From an uncultured Pelagibacteraceae bacterium (GTDB lineage: Bacteria > Pseudomonadota > Alphaproteobacteria > Pelagibacterales > AG-422-B15): a stretch of DNA of 64,000 bases. This document shows, in pieces, positions 4,715 to 8,764 of the stretch (position 1 is the first letter of the stretch; each line of letters begins with the position of its first letter). The stretch covers positions 183,136-247,135 of the forward strand of contig CACHCK010000001.1 in assembly GCA_902578305.1 (NCBI GenBank), read 5' to 3'. The position numbers and the translations under genes were made by a program. A model generated the notes under the pieces. The model searched no databases, was not told where the DNA came from, and was given only the letters and a program-made list of their open reading frames with translations.

Positions 4715-5851
4715 ATGAAGATTGTAGTAATAACCGGTGAAGAGTCTGGCGATAAATTAGCCGCATCAGCCATAAAAGAACTGAAAAAAATTTCAAATGA
4801 GCCTCTTAAAATTTTCGGTATTGGTGGAAGAGCCCTTGAAAAAGAGGGTATTCAAAAATTTTTTGATATATCAGAAATTAACGTGATGGGATTAATTGAA
4901 GTTATTCCTAAGATATTTAAAATAAATCGCATAATAAAATCAGTGGTTAATCAAATTATTAAACTTGATCCTGATATTATTTTCACAGTTGATAGTCCGG
5001 ATTTTACATTGAGAATTGCTGAACGGATAAAAAAACGAAACAATAAATTAAAAATTCTTCATTATGTGGCTCCTAGCGTTTGGGCATGGAGGCCTGGACG
5101 TGTCCATACAGTAAAAAAATCAGTAGATCACTTGCTAACAATTCTACCCTTTGAGAAGAAAATATTTGAGAAATATGAAGTGCCGACAACTTTTGTAGGT
5201 CATCCGATAACAGAGATAAATATTGAAAACTTTAAAAAAAATCAAATTACTGAGGGAGACAGAGAAGTTATCTTAATTTTACCGGGAAGTAGAAAAAAGG
5301 AAGTTGTATCTCTTTTACCAATTTACTTAGAAGTAATAAGGGCCATGAAGTTAGATGACAAGTATGAGCTTGTAATGCCACTTACAAAAGAAATGACTTT
5401 TTATGTAGAAGATATCTTAAGTCAATTCGGTTTACAAAATACAATAAAAATAATTCTAGATGAGCATATTAAATACTCTTATTACTATCATGCAAAACTT
5501 GGTATTGTGACCTCAGGGACTGCAGCTTTAGAAGTTTCATATTTTAATACACCATATGTGACAGCATATAAATTCAATCCTGTAACCTATTTTATACTGC
5601 AATTTCTTATTAAAACTAGAATGGGTAATTTGATTAATATTATACAAGGGAAATTTATCATTCCTGAACTGCTACAAAGTAAAAGTAATAAAGATAATAT
5701 TATGTATTATTTAAATAAATTTTTAGATGATAATGATTACCTTCAAGAAGTTTTATCAAATGCAAGTGAAGCTACTGCGAAACTCAAATCTCAAAGCACG
5801 CCAAGTATAATGGCAGCAGAAAAAATTATTCAGATAGTTAATGAAAAATAA
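4715..5851 (+). CDS. lpxB: Lipid-A-disaccharide synthase
   Basis: MKIVVITGEESGDKLAA..., VAPSVWAWRPGR and ILPFEKKIFEKYEVPTTFVGHP are classic LpxB motifs. Confidence 0.9.
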   Translation: MKIVVITGEESGDKLAASAIKELKKISNEPLKIFGIGGRALEKEGIQKFFDISEINVMGLIEVIPKIFKINRIIKSVVNQIIKLDPDIIFTVDSPDFTLRIAERIKKRNNKLKILHYVAPSVWAWRPGRVHTVKKSVDHLLTILPFEKKIFEKYEVPTTFVGHPITEINIENFKKNQITEGDREVILILPGSRKKEVVSLLPIYLEVIRAMKLDDKYELVMPLTKEMTFYVEDILSQFGLQNTIKIILDEHIKYSYYYHAKLGIVTSGTAALEVSYFNTPYVTAYKFNPVTYFILQFLIKTRMGNLINIIQGKFIIPELLQSKSNKDNIMYYLNKFLDDNDYLQEVLSNASEATAKLKSQSTPSIMAAEKIIQIVNEK

Positions 5852-6371
5852 ATCTAATTATACTGAAATTGAGTCAAAAGCTTTATGGTACTTACAAAGA
5901 TACGCATCAAGTTCAGAAAACTTAAGAAATTATTTAAGACGTAAAGTTAAAGATAGCCACCTAAGTATTAACTCGGAGGAAATTATCAATGAAATAATTT
6001 TTTCTTTAGAAAGGCAACAAATTCTTAATGATCAGCTATTTTCTGATGGTAAAATTAGGAATTATCTAAATAAGGGTTGGTCACTAAAAAAAATTGAATT
6101 CAAACTTAAGGAACTAAACGTAAAGGATAATATAATTATTGATGCAATACAGAACATTAGAGATTCAGTTAAAAATATTGATCTTATAGCCGCTTGCAGG
6201 CTAGCGAAAAAGAAATCTATAGGACCTTATAGAAAAAATGAACTTACAGAAAAAATAAAAATGAGAGAACTTGGAGTTTTGTCAAGAGCAGGTTTTTCAT
6301 ATAACATCGTAAAGAAGATATTATTTGAAATGAGCAAGGAGGAGCTGGAAGATATTTATGATCAAAGATAA
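5841..6371 (+). CDS. recX: RecX-like regulatory protein
   Basis: 176 aa with a repeated helical pattern; ALWYLQRYASSSENLRNYLRRKV resembles the RecX N-terminus. 11-nt overlap with lpxB. Confidence 0.65.
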   Translation: MKNKSNYTEIESKALWYLQRYASSSENLRNYLRRKVKDSHLSINSEEIINEIIFSLERQQILNDQLFSDGKIRNYLNKGWSLKKIEFKLKELNVKDNIIIDAIQNIRDSVKNIDLIAACRLAKKKSIGPYRKNELTEKIKMRELGVLSRAGFSYNIVKKILFEMSKEELEDIYDQR

Positions 6372-7113
6372 AACAATTATTGTTACAGGTGCTGCAAGAG
6401 GCTTGGGACAGAAATATGCCCTTGAATTTGCGAAAGCAGAAGCGAATATCATTTTTGCAGATATATCTGATTGTTCTGAGACAGAGAAAAAGGTGAGCGA
6501 AGTTACAGATAAATTTTTAAGTCTAAATCTCGATGTGACAGATATAAACTCATGCAACACTATGATGGCCAAGGCTGTTGATAAATTTTCTAAAATAGAT
6601 GTATTGGTAAATAACGCTGCATTATATGGAGCATTAAAAAGCTCACGGTTTGAAGATATTGATCCAGATCAATGGGACAAAGCGATGAATGTAAATGTCA
6701 AAGGACTTTGGAATTGCTGCAGGGCAATATCTCCAATAATGAGAGAAAACAAAAGTGGCTCGATAATAAATATCGCTTCTCTAGCAGCTAAATTCGGCAT
6801 GCCTTACGCCGCAGATTACGCTACATCAAAAGCTGCCGTGATTGGATTAACTCGGGTTATGGCTAGAGAAATGGGAAAAGATAACATTCGTGTGAATGCA
6901 GTAGCGCCATCTATGGTAAGAACCGAGTCGGCAAAGGAATTTTTAGGAGAAAAAGCAGAACGTGGTTTTGAGGTTATTTCTAAAGGGCAGATATTACAAA
7001 AGACACTTGAAGTTGATGATATATATGGAACTGTTCTTTATCTTGCAAGTGATCAAAGTAAATTTGTTACAGGACAAACCCTGATGGTAGATGGAGGCAG
7101 TGTGCTTCTGTAA
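6358..7113 (+). CDS. SDR family oxidoreductase (FabG-like)
   Basis: TGAARGLGQ, NNAA, and YATSKAAVIGLTR (YxxxK). Confidence 0.9.
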   Translation: MIKDKTIIVTGAARGLGQKYALEFAKAEANIIFADISDCSETEKKVSEVTDKFLSLNLDVTDINSCNTMMAKAVDKFSKIDVLVNNAALYGALKSSRFEDIDPDQWDKAMNVNVKGLWNCCRAISPIMRENKSGSIINIASLAAKFGMPYAADYATSKAAVIGLTRVMAREMGKDNIRVNAVAPSMVRTESAKEFLGEKAERGFEVISKGQILQKTLEVDDIYGTVLYLASDQSKFVTGQTLMVDGGSVLL

Positions 7114-7116
7114 AGA

Positions 7117-7248
7117 ATGAAAAAGAAAAAAAGTAAATTAAAAAGTAATCCTATTGCAAGACAGTTAAGGACAGATAAGTTTAGACCAAAAAAGGTCGCA
7201 AATAAAAAAAAACTTCATGAAAAAAAAAGAATAAAAATTAAATTATGA
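7117..7248 (+). CDS. Unlisted 43-codon highly basic ORF; possible ArfA-like ribosome-associated peptide
   Basis: ATG 7117 to TGA 7246-7248 encodes MKKKKSKLKSNPIARQLRTDKFRPKKVANKKKLHEKKRIKIKL. The stop overlaps the ATG of the next gene (ATGA at 7245-7248). It is below the length cutoff of the ORF track. Confidence 0.4.
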   Translation: MKKKKSKLKSNPIARQLRTDKFRPKKVANKKKLHEKKRIKIKL

Positions 7249-7907
7249 CAACCGTTTCAGAGGCCGTAAACAATCGCCAATCAGTCAGAGCTTTTACAAA
7301 AAAGCAGGTATCGAATGAAATACTAGAAAGCCTAATTTATAAGTCTTCTAGATCCCCATCGGGAGGCAACTTACAGCCATGGAGAATATTTATAATAAAT
7401 GGGAACTCGATGAAACGTTTTCTTGAATTTCAGGATAAATGGAAGGGCACAGACACACCTGAGTACCCAATTTATCCTGCAAAACTTAAAGAGCCTTATA
7501 GAACTTCACGGTTTGAAGTTGGTGAACAGTTATACGGTTCCATTGGAATTGAAAGATCAGATTCGCAAGCAAGGGTAGATCAAATGCTTAAAAATTTCAC
7601 TTTTTTTGATGCGCCAGCAGCATTATTTTGTTTTGTAGACCGCCAGATGAACCAACCTCAGTGGTCAGATTTAGGAATGTTCCTACAGACATTTATGCTA
7701 CTTGCTCAAGAAGAAGGAATTGATACTTGTGCACAGGAATCTTGGTCACTTAGGCAGAAAATGGTATCTGAATTTGTTGAAGCTGACTCTGATCTCATGT
7801 TATTCTGTGGCATGGCAATTGGATACAGAGATGCCTCCTCGCCATTAAATAATTATAAAACTAATAGAAGATCACCAGCAGATTGGTGTACATTTATAAA
7901 AAAATGA
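7245..7907 (+). CDS. Nitroreductase family protein
   Basis: The N-terminus AVNNRQSVRAFTKKQV, SRSPSGGNLQPWRIFII and the C-terminal GMAIGY are typical of the NfsA/NfsB fold family. Confidence 0.85.
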   Translation: MTTVSEAVNNRQSVRAFTKKQVSNEILESLIYKSSRSPSGGNLQPWRIFIINGNSMKRFLEFQDKWKGTDTPEYPIYPAKLKEPYRTSRFEVGEQLYGSIGIERSDSQARVDQMLKNFTFFDAPAALFCFVDRQMNQPQWSDLGMFLQTFMLLAQEEGIDTCAQESWSLRQKMVSEFVEADSDLMLFCGMAIGYRDASSPLNNYKTNRRSPADWCTFIKK

Positions 7908-8764
7908 CAGAAAAAAAATTTTTTACTCATAAAAATAAAAAAATTGCATATGTCGATGTTGGCACAGGTGATCCAATAATCTTCTTTCACGGAAACCCAA
8001 GCTCATCCTATTTGTATAGAAATATTATTAAAAACTTAAATAGTGGTTACAGATGTATTGCGGCAGATATGATTGGTATGGGTGACTCTGATAAGTTAGA
8101 TAATCCTGGTCATATGACTTATACATTTGATACTCATTTTGAATACTTATCTGAATTAATAAAAAGTCTAAATTTAAATGAAAAAATTACCCTTGTAGGA
8201 CAAGACTGGGGAGGGCCATTAAGCATTAAATGGGCGAGAGAGAATTCAGATAAAGTAAGAGGCATATGTTATTTTGAAACAGTTATTGCGCCGATTAAAT
8301 CTGAAGAAATGCAAGAACCGCTTAAAAGTTTATTTATGATGCTAAGGTCCGAAAAAGGTGACAAAAAGGTTTTAGAAGAAAATTTCTTTGTTGAAAAAAT
8401 GTTGGGAACAGACCCGATTACTCCTCTAAGTGAAGAAACTATGGCTGTTTATAGAAAACCATTTCTTAATCCTGGGGAGGATAGAAGACCAACTTTGGAC
8501 TGGCCGCGACAAATTCCAATTGATAAAGAACCGAAGCACGTCCATGAAGAAGTTAAAAAAAATCTATCTTTCATGATGGAGACAGAAATACCAAAACTTT
8601 TAATCATTGCAGAGCCAGGCCGTTTAATGCCAAAGCCTCTAATTGAATTTTGCAGAAAATTTAAAAATCAATCCGAAGCGACTGTAAAAGGCAACCATTT
8701 TGTTCAAGAAGACTCACCTAACGAAATAAGTGAAAATATAGATAATTGGTTGAAGTCTATTTAA
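7904..8764 (+). CDS. Haloalkane dehalogenase-type alpha/beta hydrolase (HLD-II-like)
   Basis: HGNPSSSYLYRNII (Asn halide-stabilising motif), nucleophile elbow GQDWGG, and C-terminal GNHFVQEDSP (catalytic His). Start moved to 7904 (MTEKKFF...), which overlaps the upstream stop as ATGA. Confidence 0.8.
   Translation: MTEKKFFTHKNKKIAYVDVGTGDPIIFFHGNPSSSYLYRNIIKNLNSGYRCIAADMIGMGDSDKLDNPGHMTYTFDTHFEYLSELIKSLNLNEKITLVGQDWGGPLSIKWARENSDKVRGICYFETVIAPIKSEEMQEPLKSLFMMLRSEKGDKKVLEENFFVEKMLGTDPITPLSEETMAVYRKPFLNPGEDRRPTLDWPRQIPIDKEPKHVHEEVKKNLSFMMETEIPKLLIIAEPGRLMPKPLIEFCRKFKNQSEATVKGNHFVQEDSPNEISENIDNWLKSI

What the first reader, a model, noticed from the sequence alone, without database searches (positions are those of the whole stretch)
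7117..7248. Unlisted 43-codon poly-lysine ORF (ArfA-like?) ATGA-coupled to a nitroreductase
The 131-nt apparent spacer after the SDR gene is fully occupied by ATG 7117 to TGA 7248, encoding MKKKKSKLKSNPIARQLRTDKFRPKKVANKKKLHEKKRIKIKL. The stop overlaps the next start as ATGA. The central segment NPIARQLRTDKFRPKKVANKKK resembles the conserved core of alternative ribosome-rescue factor ArfA, N.IA.LL.DPLF+QR+...KKGKG, quoted from my memory of the family rather than a search. The DNA contains two 9-A runs (7204-7212 and 7220-7228) plus A5GA7 at 7120-7132. Long AAA-lysine tracks are known to promote ribosome sliding or frameshifting, which would be an odd feature to retain in a streamlined genome unless it is functional.
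Basis: partly seen in the sequence, partly recalled or inferred. Interest (0 to 1): 0.6.

Follow-up and report, generated by a model that had tools for sequence, protein, structure and literature searches.

The report
ArfA-like small basic protein in SAR11
The apparent spacer is a real, conserved gene for a 43-residue lysine-rich protein found in SAR11 bacteria and their phages; it is a distant relative of the ribosome-rescue factor ArfA and probably helps free stalled ribosomes, while its long A-runs are only a by-product of lysine codon usage.

Summary
The window is SAR11 (Pelagibacteraceae).

The ORF is a real gene. It stays in frame in at least seven peptide types from SAR11 loci (flanking SDR 75-100% identical, nitroreductase 64-99%), with synonymous changes at invariant residues, no frame-breaking indels and no RNA structure.

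It is not a nitroreductase leader. It persists where that gene is absent, and homologues lie in unrelated phage and cellular contexts.

A profile search finds a large family of 30-77 aa marine proteins with the core NP[IV]AK[ED]LRTxK[YF]..NKKK. About half match Pfam DUF7230.

The ArfA idea holds only as remote homology. The peptide hits no Pfam model. Family profiles align with ArfA in one ungapped register, beyond 0/300 and 0/200 shuffles. Two bridge proteins (P0020; pelagiphage HTVC027P gp30) join this core to ArfA's KKGKGS tail.

ArfA's KGKGS motif, most of its RF2-binding patch and its non-stop-mRNA regulation are absent.

The A-runs match genomic AAA usage, never vary in length and are not conserved. 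Ribosome rescue is inferred, not shown.

The parts
7117..7248 (+). Small protein gene of 43 codons plus stop. Product: MKKKKSKLKSNPIARQLRTDKFRPKKVANKKKLHEKKRIKIKL (16 Lys, 4 Arg, 2 acidic residues).
   Evidence: sequence and ORF. (in-frame conservation in all syntenic SAR11 loci; at least seven peptide types). (identical protein deposited as hypothetical protein, 143 contigs).
7147..7212 (+). Conserved core module, residues N11-K32 (NPIARQLRTDKFRPKKVANKKK). N11, A14, T19, K21 and K30 are invariant, and P12, L17, R18 and K31 are at least 90% conserved across 57 family members. It aligns without gaps to E. coli ArfA N14-G35.
   Evidence: invariant columns. (hhalign register and shuffle controls). 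(MAFFT alignment with ArfA and the bridge proteins). (synonymous codon changes at invariant L17, R18, T19 and P12).
7198..7245 (+). Basic C-terminal tail, residues 28-43 (ANKKKLHEKKRIKIKL; 8 of 16 residues Lys/Arg). It is the inferred counterpart of the ArfA segment (aa 31-48) that fills the empty mRNA tunnel. AlphaFold2 predicts a helix for residues 30-42.
   Evidence: Composition read from the sequence. ArfA tunnel segment and minimal length from PMC5378476. AlphaFold2 model, pLDDT 86. The function is inferred, not shown.
7111..7119 (+). Upstream junction: SDR stop TAA (7111-7113), 3 nt, then ATG (7117-7119). There is no Shine-Dalgarno sequence at normal spacing, so translational coupling to the SDR gene is likely.
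   Evidence: The stop-to-start spacing stays between -1 and +6 nt across all SAR11 types.
7245..7248 (+). ATGA overlap: the nitroreductase start ATG (7245-7247) and the small-ORF stop TGA (7246-7248).
   Evidence: The 4-nt overlap is conserved in types 1-3, is a 17-nt overlap in types 4-5, and is absent where the nitroreductase is missing (L085).
7204..7212 (+). First A9 run, codons K30-K31-K32 (AAA AAA AAA). The NKK[KR] residues are conserved. The homopolymer is not: it reads AAG AAA AGA and AAA AAA AGA in types 4 and 5.
7220..7228 (+). Second A9 run (GAA AAA AAA AGA, residues E35-R38). It is present only in the window's own subgroup and is broken by substitution in L019 and in all other types.
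7120..7132 (+). A5GA7 run encoding the N-terminal K2-K5. This N-terminal stretch is variable between types (MKKKK, MVNKK, MVEKR, MTKVK).
6358..7113 (+). Upstream short-chain dehydrogenase/reductase gene. It is the constant upstream partner of the small gene in SAR11.
   Evidence: Pfam. (the SDR precedes the peptide in all SAR11 loci, including L085, which lacks the nitroreductase).
7245..7907 (+). Downstream nitroreductase-family gene. It is a frequent but dispensable neighbour.
   Evidence: Pfam. (orthologues). (absent in L085).

Best explanation
ORF 7117-7248 is a genuine, constitutively co-translated gene of a SAR11 bacterium. It encodes a 43-residue, roughly +18-charged protein. The protein belongs to a large, uncharacterised family of marine bacterial and phage mini-proteins (an extended Pfam DUF7230) that is a divergent branch of the ArfA superfamily. 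The most likely mechanism, inferred by homology, has three steps. The Lys-rich C-terminal tail (residues ~28-43) enters the empty mRNA tunnel of a ribosome stalled at the 3' end of a truncated mRNA. The extended middle part (LRTxK[FY]R) lies in the vacant A site. The conserved NP[IV]AK head then helps a class-I release factor adopt its active form and hydrolyse the peptidyl-tRNA without a stop codon. Unlike E. coli arfA, the gene has its own stop codon and no RNase III hairpin, so it is probably made at a low constant level by translational coupling within the recX-like/SDR/nitroreductase gene string, rather than being switched on when tmRNA fails. What is shown: the gene is real and under purifying selection, the family exists in cells and phages, and there is order-specific sequence similarity to ArfA plus bridging sequences. 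What is inferred: ribosome binding, release-factor recruitment and which release factor is used.
For: Real gene: the frame is kept in 33 of 33 syntenic genome loci and in the metagenome loci, across at least seven peptide types, while the flanking SDR falls to 75% and the nitroreductase to 64% identity. The invariant Leu is encoded by TTA, TTG, CTA and CTT, and Pro, Arg and Thr also vary only synonymously. There is no RNA structure (z = -1.2; 0 consensus pairs). Independence from the nitroreductase: L085 has SDR, peptide, then a convergent MFS gene. Relatives lie after PolA or after an OmpR-type regulator and in phage genomes. Family: the profile search gives 305 proteins at E<=10, and 30 of 57 members hit DUF7230. 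ArfA link: hhalign of the family (bridge excluded) against enterobacterial ArfA scores 17.7 with P = 0.0019 over 23 ungapped columns, against a column-shuffle null of 7.3 +/- 1.7 (max 13.3; 0 of 300) and 10.4 for the reversed alignment. The SAR11 chromosomal types alone score 16.8 against a null of 8.1 +/- 1.8 (0 of 200). Against an enterobacterial ArfA HMM, 28% of 187 family peptides exceed the 99th percentile of their own shuffles. P0020 copy 1 (NLIAKDLRTTKYKPRIVKPKKGKGSFKRK) passes the Pfam ArfA gathering score, 27.4 against 25.5 bits. Pelagiphage HTVC027P gp30 (NPVAKEVRTPKYKSQIIKPKKGRGSFKR) hits Pfam ArfA at E = 4e-4. It is annotated as ArfA and transcribed during infection (PMC12753301). 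Its close relatives P0055 and P0101 share its N-terminal extension but carry the NKKK-type tail and hit DUF7230. E. coli ArfA hits DUF7230 at E = 0.11. Size and charge: at the +3 offset the peptide ends at ArfA residue 46, close to the minimal active ArfA(1-47), and its tail is 50% basic like ArfA aa 31-48 (PMC5378476).
Against: The window peptide itself matches neither Pfam ArfA nor DUF7230, nor any NCBIfam model. Profiles of the family do not retrieve E. coli ArfA from the PDB by HMMER. The hhalign probability is only 9-14%. Alone, the peptide scores 4.0 bits against an ArfA HMM, the 97.8th percentile of shuffles. Two of the three residues of ArfA's RF2-binding hydrophobic patch are charged here (L19 to E/Q, L24 to an invariant K), A18 is K/R, and the KGKGS and KH motifs are missing. 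There is no sign of non-stop mRNA regulation. Some phage members carry long acidic or hydrophobic C-terminal extensions that are not obviously compatible with a tunnel-filling tail. No functional data exist for any DUF7230-type member, and I could not check whether this genome has ssrA, smpB, arfB or prfB.
Confidence: 0.5

Rival explanations
1. The peptide is a real small basic protein that binds the ribosome or another nucleic acid but does something other than release-factor-dependent rescue. Examples would be a translation modulator, a hibernation or assembly factor, a ribosomal-protein-like accessory or, in phages, a host-takeover factor. Under this reading the similarity to ArfA reflects only shared ancestry of, or convergence on, an rRNA-binding basic segment.
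For: The residues ArfA uses to contact RF2 are mostly not conserved (L19, L24, A18). C-terminal tails in phage members are very diverse. The strongest ArfA-like signal lies in the basic mid and C-terminal segment, which can converge, as the literature assumes for ArfA, ArfT and BrfA. There is a weak local resemblance to the rRNA-binding N-terminus of zinc-type uS14.
Against: The similarity to ArfA depends on residue order, not only on composition (0 of 300 and 0 of 200 shuffles). It extends into the N-terminal head (N, I, L, P, F/Y in one ungapped register). Bridging proteins carry both signatures in a single polypeptide.
Confidence: 0.3
2. The ORF is a leader or coupling uORF. Its translation, with possible ribosome stalling or sliding on the poly-lysine AAA tracts, would set the expression of the downstream nitroreductase, and the peptide product itself would be irrelevant.
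For: The ATGA overlap with the nitroreductase start and the 3-nt gap from the SDR stop. Two A9 runs lie within 132 nt.
Against: The amino-acid sequence is conserved, not the nucleotides or the A-runs. The ORF persists with the same length and core where the nitroreductase is absent (L085) and where a 13-nt gap replaces the overlap (L130). Homologues sit in unrelated cellular and phage contexts. The second A9 is confined to one subgroup and the first is broken in two. AAA usage equals the genomic background, 81% against 78%.
Confidence: 0.05
3. The A-runs are programmed slippery sites, for ribosomal frameshifting or transcriptional slippage, that yield alternative C-termini or phase-variable expression.
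For: Rare database variants carry frameshifted ends: P0002 ends '...NKKTS' and P0260 ends '...EKKINKIKILKHFKRP'.
Against: All 18 independent group-1 loci have identical run lengths (7, 6, 9, 9), and the differences are substitutions only. The frameshift products would be short truncated tails with no conserved alternative frame. P0002 comes from an assembly at 0.03x coverage whose neighbouring genes are also fragmented, so it is a homopolymer sequencing error. P0260 is a single 724-nt contig among roughly 600 cluster members.
Confidence: 0.03
4. The ORF is a chance open frame in an A-rich intergenic spacer and is not translated.
For: It is short and of low complexity, it matches no curated model, and many gene callers skip it (only 2 hits for the single-sequence search).
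Against: The frame, length (42-44 codons) and core motif are conserved across at least seven diverged types with synonymous substitutions. There are hundreds of homologues, including in cultured pelagiphages.
Confidence: 0.01

Closest known systems
ArfA (alternative ribosome-rescue factor A; Pfam PF03889; E. coli YhdL; PDB 5H5U, 5U4I, 5MDV)
   Same: A very small basic protein whose active form is of similar size (43 aa here; ArfA is active as residues 1-47). One ungapped register aligns N14, I16, L20, P23 (in most family members), F25, R26, R28 and N32-K33-K34 of ArfA with N11, I13, L17, P/D20, F/Y22, R/K23, K/R25 and N29-K30-K31 here. The C-terminal segment is half basic, like ArfA's mRNA-tunnel segment. 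Bridging proteins combine this family's head with ArfA's KKGKGS[YF]xRK tail.
   Different: The peptide gets no Pfam ArfA hit. It lacks the KGKGS and KH motifs. ArfA's RF2-binding patch L19/L24/F25 reads E-or-Q/K/F-or-Y here, and A18 is K/R. The gene has an in-frame stop, no hairpin and no terminator, and it overlaps the next gene, so there is no non-stop-mRNA/tmRNA control. [quoted passage not shown]
Pfam DUF7230 (PF23876), with the phage families phrog_20887, phrog_6310 and phrog_2701, all of unknown function
   Same: The same core, NP[IV]AKELRTPK[YF][KR]x[KR]V[IV]xNKKK. My SAR11-based profile retrieves DUF7230 proteins at E of 1e-6 to 1e-7. 30 of 57 family members hit DUF7230 and several hit phrog_20887.
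   Different: The window peptide and the other SAR11 chromosomal types fall below the model's reporting threshold. The typical DUF7230 tail 'KKKYDRKK' is replaced by 'KKKLHEKKRIKIKL'. DUF7230 has no assigned function, and I found no paper that mentions it.
Pelagibacter phage HTVC027P gp30 (QGZ17811.1), annotated as ArfA in PMC12753301
   Same: It contains NPVAKEVRTPKYKSQIIK, which is the family core. It infects SAR11 and is transcribed early and late in infection.
   Different: It is 58 aa with a 25-residue N-terminal extension and an ArfA-type PKKGRGSFKR tail. It hits Pfam ArfA (E = 4e-4, 20.2 bits, below the 25.5-bit gathering score in this Pfam copy). It is phage-encoded, not chromosomal.
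ArfT (Francisella tularensis FTA_0865, 40 aa)
   Same: A tiny (40 aa) release-factor-dependent rescue factor that was missed by annotation. It has its own stop codon and no ArfA-type RNase III regulation (PMC6299226). This shows that ArfA-like activity is possible without ArfA's regulation, and with RF1 or RF2.
   Different: ArfT's signature is KKGGSTNKK, and Burroughs and Aravind place it in a separate, repeat-forming family (PMC6514570). It has no NPxAKxLRT core. I did not obtain the ArfT sequence, so I made no direct alignment.
C-terminal tails of SmpB and ArfB
   Same: These are basic tails that sense the empty mRNA tunnel and form alpha-helices there (PMC5378476). AlphaFold2 predicts a basic helix for residues 30-42 of the SAR11 peptide.
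   Different: SmpB and ArfB are larger proteins with globular domains, and there is no sequence similarity. The resemblance is functional only.

Membership tests
ArfA (PF03889) | Sequence matches the Pfam ArfA HMM at or above the gathering score (25.5 bits) | tested here: not met
   No ArfA hit for the window peptide even at E<=10. 1 of 57 family members hits the model (P0020, 27.4 bits). Phage gp30 scores 20.2 bits.
ArfA (PF03889) | Profile-level similarity to ArfA in a consistent register, beyond what composition gives | tested here: met
   hhalign score 17.7 (P = 0.0019) against a shuffle null of 7.3 +/- 1.7 (0 of 300), and 10.4 for the reversed alignment. SAR11-only profile: 16.8 against 8.1 +/- 1.8 (0 of 200). 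The hhalign probability is only 9-14%.
ArfA (PF03889) | Conserved KGKGS motif in the tunnel-binding tail | tested here: not met
   The tail reads NKKKLHEKKR. The motif is present only in the bridge proteins P0020 and gp30.
ArfA (PF03889) | Hydrophobic patch L19/L24/F25 that binds RF2 Trp319, and a small residue at A18 (PMC5378476) | tested here: not met
   The aligned positions are Q/E16, invariant K21, F/Y22 and R/K15. Only the aromatic residue is kept.
ArfA (PF03889) | Basic C-terminal segment long enough to fill the mRNA tunnel (ArfA is active when truncated at residue 47 and inactive when truncated after residue 40) | tested here: met
   In the ungapped register the peptide ends at ArfA position 46. 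Residues 28-43 are 50% Lys/Arg.
ArfA (PF03889) | Synthesis from a non-stop mRNA made by RNase III cleavage or termination at an internal hairpin, so that tmRNA represses it | tested here: not met
   There is an in-frame stop overlapping the next gene's start. The fold has z = -1.2. There is no terminator-like site on the + strand. The consensus fold of 7 diverged orthologues has 0 pairs.
ArfA (PF03889) | RF2-dependent, stop-codon-independent peptidyl-tRNA hydrolysis on non-stop ribosomes | not testable with these tools
   This needs a biochemical assay or genetic complementation.
ArfA (PF03889) | Back-up role alongside tmRNA-SmpB in the same genome | not testable with these tools
   There is no tmRNA, tRNA or Rfam hit in the 64-kb window.
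DUF7230 (PF23876) | Matches the Pfam DUF7230 HMM at or above the gathering score (27 bits) | tested here: not met
   No hit for the window peptide at E<=1. P0064 scores 32.4 bits, and 30 of 57 profile-defined relatives hit at E<=1.
DUF7230 (PF23876) | Core motif NP[IV]AKELRTPKY..V..NKKK near the N-terminus of a protein of 30-80 aa | tested here: met
   The window has NPIARQLRTDKFRPKKVANKKK at residues 11-32. A profile built from SAR11 types retrieves DUF7230-positive proteins at E of 1e-6 to 1e-7.
ArfT | KKGGSTNKK-type C-terminal motif / KGG-repeat family (PMC6299226, PMC6514570) | tested here: not met
   There is no such motif in the peptide. The ArfT sequence itself was not available for alignment.
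Leader peptide / regulatory uORF of the nitroreductase | Always linked to the regulated downstream gene, with the peptide sequence itself unconstrained | tested here: not met
   It is present without the nitroreductase in L085. The amino-acid sequence is under purifying selection. Homologues occur in phages and at other cellular loci.

The most novel reading that the evidence does not exclude
DUF7230 and the SAR11 mini-proteins together form a previously unrecognised, very abundant branch of the ArfA superfamily. On this reading, release-factor-dependent ribosome rescue operates in SAR11 (Alphaproteobacteria), outside ArfA's accepted beta/gamma-proteobacterial range. It would do so without tmRNA-coupled regulation and with a different release-factor-contact surface, possibly allowing RF1 as well as RF2 as for ArfT. 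It would also be widely carried by marine phages, which could use it to keep ribosomes available while host mRNAs are being degraded.
Probability: 0.4. Interest if true: 0.7.

Novelty: new variant of a known kind. Interest (0 to 1): 0.55.

Why it matters
ArfA-type rescue is regarded as a late, narrow invention of some beta- and gamma-proteobacteria (PMC8012679). [quoted passage not shown] It would also give a first functional hypothesis for Pfam DUF7230 and several PHROG families of unknown function. It offers a natural experiment in how the release-factor-activating surface can change while the tunnel-sensing tail is kept. It suggests that phages commonly carry ribosome-rescue factors as auxiliary genes. 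On the practical side, it shows that a 43-codon gene sits in what looks like a spacer in a streamlined genome. It is also hidden from representative-based protein searches, because its 90% cluster is represented by the neighbouring 251-aa SDR.

Tried and rejected
1. Direct family assignment of the peptide gave nothing significant. I tried Pfam, NCBIfam and PHROGs, phmmer against the PDB, and phmmer against 1.84 billion representatives. The best hits were SelA at E about 0.3 and phrog_20887 at E = 0.14, and only three near relatives were found.
2. HMMER profiles of the family against the PDB did not retrieve ArfA. They gave only weak local hits to SelA, uS14 and uL14 (E of 0.2-1.5). I regard these as chance or local resemblance.
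3. tblastn of the peptide and of the bridge against the phage collection was mostly removed by the low-complexity filter. Only HTVC115P was found.
4. The ArfA homologue search returned only enterobacterial sequences at 80% identity or more among the listed hits, so my ArfA profile is narrow.
5. Foldseek of the AlphaFold2 model against the PDB gave no matches, and the peptide is too short for fold comparison.
6. ArfT as the closest relative: rejected on its different motif and on the published family assignment.
7. A PTH1 link suggested by a 'PTH1 family' protein in the same 90% cluster: rejected. P0265 is an unrelated Pth fragment, so this is a clustering artefact.
8. Functional A-run slippage, a nitroreductase leader peptide and a conserved RNA element: tested and rejected.
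9. Literature searches found nothing on DUF7230 or on rescue factors in SAR11 beyond the pelagiphage gp30 annotation.
Full report
OBSERVATION. The ORF is exactly as described. ATG 7117-7119 runs to TGA 7246-7248 and its 43 codons encode MKKKKSKLKSNPIARQLRTDKFRPKKVANKKKLHEKKRIKIKL. The upstream gene (6358-7113) is a short-chain dehydrogenase and the downstream gene (7245-7907) a nitroreductase-family protein. The SDR stop lies 3 nt before the ATG, and the small ORF's stop overlaps the nitroreductase start as ATGA. The A-runs are at the stated coordinates: A5GA7 at 7120-7132, and A9 at 7204-7212 and 7220-7228. The window is about 34% G+C. The nitroreductase is 95-99% identical to those of Pelagibacteraceae single-cell genomes, so the source is SAR11. 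The window has no tRNA, tmRNA or Rfam match.

IS IT A GENE? I fetched 80 genome loci through the nitroreductase and 80 metagenome loci through the peptide profile. All 33 Pelagibacteraceae genome loci with SDR-nitroreductase synteny have an open frame of 42-44 codons in the same place. The SAR11 metagenome loci agree, while the flanking SDR falls to 75% and the nitroreductase to 64% identity. At least seven peptide types occur:
- MKKKKSKLKSNPIARQLRTDKFRPKKVANKKKLHEKKRIKIKL
- MVNKKEILKSNPVAKELRTVKFRSQKIKNKKKSEEMKRIKVKL
- MVEKRRLKSNPIARELRTTKYKPHKIQNKKKIQERKRVKIKV
- MKKKKETKKNPIAKDLRTPKYRQKKIPNKKREIINKKYKYENCN
- MKIKKKSRSNPVAKELRTPKYQAKKIPNKKRKIINKKYKYEECI
- MTKVKANKKSNPVAKELRTSKFKKRVIPNKKKIIEKKRIKLRF
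- MNSSNRLKSNPVAKELRTKKFRSQKLPNKKKQLEKKRIKVNKV

The types differ by substitutions, not by frame-breaking indels. Third codon positions change most. Invariant residues change synonymously: Leu17 is TTA, TTG, CTA or CTT, Arg18 is AGG or AGA, Thr19 is ACA, ACT or ACC, and Pro12 is CCT, CCA or CCC. The RNA shows no structure (z = -1.2; no consensus pairs in seven diverged orthologues). Conservation is therefore at the protein level. The identical peptide is deposited as 'hypothetical protein' in Pelagibacterales MAGs and was seen on 143 contigs.

IS IT TIED TO THE NITROREDUCTASE? No. In L085 the SDR is followed 6 nt later by a 43-codon orthologue and then directly by a convergent MFS transporter gene, with no nitroreductase. 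The constant features in SAR11 are the SDR upstream and very tight packing. The stop-to-start spacing is -1 to +6 nt upstream. Downstream there is a 4-nt overlap, a 17-nt overlap or a short gap. This fits translational coupling in a streamlined operon. The window's recX-like, SDR, small-ORF, nitroreductase and hydrolase genes all overlap or abut.

THE WIDER FAMILY. Single-sequence searches found almost nothing. One reason is that the peptide's 90% cluster is represented by the 251-aa SDR. A profile of eight SAR11 types retrieved 305 proteins at E<=10. These are mostly 30-77 aa and share NP[IV]AK[ED]LRT[PST]K[YF][KR]x[KR]V[IV]xNKKK near the N-terminus, followed by variable tails that are basic, acidic or hydrophobic. 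Of 57 representatives, 30 match Pfam DUF7230 (unknown function; P0064 reaches 32.4 bits against a 27-bit gathering score), and several match phrog_20887.

Many members are phage-encoded:
- A T7-like podovirus early region, with a 50%-identical homologue in Pelagibacter phage HTVC115P.
- Contigs with capsid or terminase genes.
- A 74-kb phage contig where the gene lies two genes upstream of a PTH2 peptidyl-tRNA hydrolase.
- Three viral contigs of about 120 kb and 62-63% G+C.
- More than 600 motif matches in IMG/VR.

A second type of AT-rich locus places the gene after polA (L094), or after an OmpR-type regulator next to a YkuD transpeptidase (L086). In both it faces the same glutaredoxin-RNR cluster. 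The YkuD and regulator neighbours suggest that L086 at least is cellular. No public source names any member, and no paper mentions DUF7230.

THE ArfA QUESTION. The peptide has no Pfam ArfA hit at E<=10 and no NCBIfam hit, and HMMER family profiles do not retrieve ArfA from the PDB. Four other results point to a real but remote relationship.

(i) Profile-profile alignment. I first verified my recalled E. coli ArfA sequence against PDB 5H5U and built an ArfA profile from enterobacterial homologues. hhalign of the family (104 sequences, bridge excluded) against that profile gives a single ungapped alignment, residues 9-31 with ArfA 12-34, score 17.7, P = 0.0019. Three hundred column-shuffled versions of the family alignment give 7.3 +/- 1.7 (max 13.3), and the reversed alignment gives 10.4. 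The eight SAR11 chromosomal sequences alone give 16.8 over 27 columns, against 8.1 +/- 1.8 (max 14.6; 0 of 200). The similarity therefore depends on residue order, not on lysine content. The hhalign probabilities are low (9-14%).

(ii) An HMM built only from enterobacterial ArfA scores 28% of 187 family peptides above the 99th percentile of their own shuffles. The window peptide alone is marginal, at 4.0 bits (97.8th percentile).

(iii) Bridging proteins. P0020 is a tandem duplicate. Its first copy, NLIAKDLRTTKYKPRIVKPKKGKGSFKRK, has this family's head and ArfA's KKGKGS[YF]xRK tail, and it passes the Pfam ArfA gathering score (27.4 against 25.5 bits). Its second copy is a typical DUF7230-type unit. 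Pelagiphage HTVC027P gp30 reads ...NPVAKEVRTPKYKSQIIKPKKGRGSFKR... and hits Pfam ArfA at E = 4e-4. A 2025 transcriptome study already annotated it as ArfA and found it highly expressed (PMC12753301). P0055 and P0101 share gp30's unusual N-terminal extension but carry NKKKDYF in place of PKKGRGSF and hit DUF7230 instead. The two tail types therefore interchange among close relatives.

(iv) E. coli ArfA itself gives a weak DUF7230 hit (E = 0.11).

MAPPING TO ArfA FUNCTION. ArfA aa 31-48 fill the mRNA tunnel, aa 21-30 lie in the A site, and the N-terminal minidomain activates RF2. L19, L24 and F25 bind RF2 Trp319, and A18T inactivates ArfA. ArfA remains active when truncated at residue 47 but not after residue 40 (PMC5378476). 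In the ungapped register (offset +3) the SAR11 peptide ends at ArfA position 46, and its tail (residues 28-43) is 50% Lys/Arg. N14, I16, L20, F25, R26, R28 and N32-K33-K34 have identical or similar counterparts, and P23 does in most family members. However, L19 becomes E/Q, L24 becomes an invariant K and A18 becomes K/R. The KGKGS motif is absent, and so is the KH motif noted in the review PMC8012679. AlphaFold2 (pLDDT 86) predicts a short helix at 12-16, an extended stretch at 17-29 and a basic helix at 30-42. Foldseek finds nothing, as expected for 43 residues. The tunnel-sensing part therefore looks equivalent, while the release-factor-contact surface has changed. Which release factor would be recruited, if any, is open. 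ArfT shows that such factors can use RF1 or RF2 and need no ArfA-type regulation (PMC6299226). ArfT itself has a different motif and a different published family assignment.

REGULATION. ArfA is made from a non-stop mRNA produced at an internal hairpin. Here there is an in-frame stop, no significant fold, no terminator-like site on the coding strand and no conserved pairing. The gene is probably expressed constitutively by coupling to the SDR.

THE A-RUNS. AAA accounts for 78% of Lys codons in the window's 47 long ORFs and 81% (13 of 16) in the peptide. With 16 Lys in 43 codons, long A-runs are expected. The run lengths (7, 6, 9, 9) are identical in all 18 group-1 loci, and every deviation is a substitution. 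The second A9 is absent from all other types. The first is A9-A10 in types 1-3 but reads AAG AAA AGA or AAA AAA AGA in types 4 and 5, while NKK[KR] is kept. Frameshifting at the runs would only give short truncated tails. The two frameshifted database variants are a homopolymer error in a 0.03x-coverage assembly and a singleton contig. There is no evidence that the A-runs are functional in themselves.

VERDICT. The gene is real (confidence about 0.95). It belongs to an extended DUF7230 family shared by SAR11 and marine phages (about 0.85), and that family is probably a divergent branch of the ArfA superfamily (about 0.7). Function in release-factor-dependent ribosome rescue is the best-supported mechanism, but it rests on inference alone (about 0.5). 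ArfA is described as restricted to some beta- and gamma-proteobacteria (PMC8012679), so an alphaproteobacterial and phage branch with altered hallmarks is a new variant of a known kind. I could not examine the rest of this genome for ssrA, smpB, arfB or prfB.

Noticed in passing
window 4715-8764: There is a chain of overlapping or abutting genes. lpxB (4715-5851) overlaps the recX-like gene (5841-6371) by 11 nt, and that gene overlaps the SDR (6358-) by 14 nt. The nitroreductase stop and the alpha/beta-hydrolase start form a second ATGA at 7904-7907, so the TTG start at 7883 listed for the hydrolase ORF is probably not the real start.
   Followed up: partly
protein collection, cluster of the window peptide: The 43-aa peptide sits in a 90%-identity cluster of 608 members whose representative is the neighbouring 251-aa SDR. 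This hides it from representative-based searches and explains why the single-sequence searches found almost nothing.
   Followed up: partly
L087 2883-3011 and 3662-4195 (74-kb phage contig Ga0643765_0000203): A family member (P0074) lies two genes upstream of a PTH2-type peptidyl-tRNA hydrolase (Pfam 4e-21) in a large phage that also carries a transaldolase. This could be a translation-rescue gene neighbourhood or a coincidence.
   Followed up: partly
L086 1206-1418 (P0020): A 70-aa tandem duplicate: an ArfA-type unit (KKGKGSF tail) fused to a DUF7230-type unit (KSKKIYNRKK tail) in one ORF. It overlaps the upstream OmpR-type regulator gene by 4 nt and faces a glutaredoxin-RNR cluster. The locus is 26% G+C.
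   Followed up: partly
L099, L107, L109 (IMG/VR contigs of about 120 kb, 62-63% G+C): High-GC large phages encode a homologue (…RRSPIARDLRTPKYKPRVVPNKKRKAK…), so the family is not confined to AT-rich SAR11 and pelagiphage genomes.
   Followed up: no
window peptide residues 8-24, compared with Bacillus zinc-type uS14 residues 3-19 (PDB 3J9W chain AN): There is a local resemblance, KsNPiAKeLRTtKYrpk against KKSMIAKQQRTPKFKVQ, at E of 0.4-0.7. It is not significant, but the uS14 segment is an rRNA-binding N-terminus. A similar chance-level match exists to SelA (KKNPIARALRIDK).
   Followed up: no
L001 (ERZ28548055 NODE_1644, coverage 0.03): This syntenic contig has nearly every gene broken into fragments (lpxB, nitroreductase and hydrolase are all split). 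Its version of the peptide (P0002) is the -1 frameshift product at the first A-run. It is an error-rich assembly, not biology.
   Followed up: yes
L120-L123 (metagenome contigs, type-3 peptide): Downstream of the nitroreductase, the alpha/beta-hydrolase is replaced by a gene on the opposite strand that is only 29% identical to it. The gene content downstream of the small ORF therefore varies among SAR11 lineages, while recX-like/SDR/peptide stays constant.
   Followed up: no
L044, L082 (Pelagibacteraceae) and L038-L084 (SAR86 and others): Nitroreductase homologues at 57-62% identity occur in SAR86 and in other SAR11 contexts. In the three such loci I examined (L044, L063, L082) there is no SDR or small ORF upstream, so the nitroreductase moves independently of the peptide gene. 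The SAR86 loci themselves were not inspected.
   Followed up: partly
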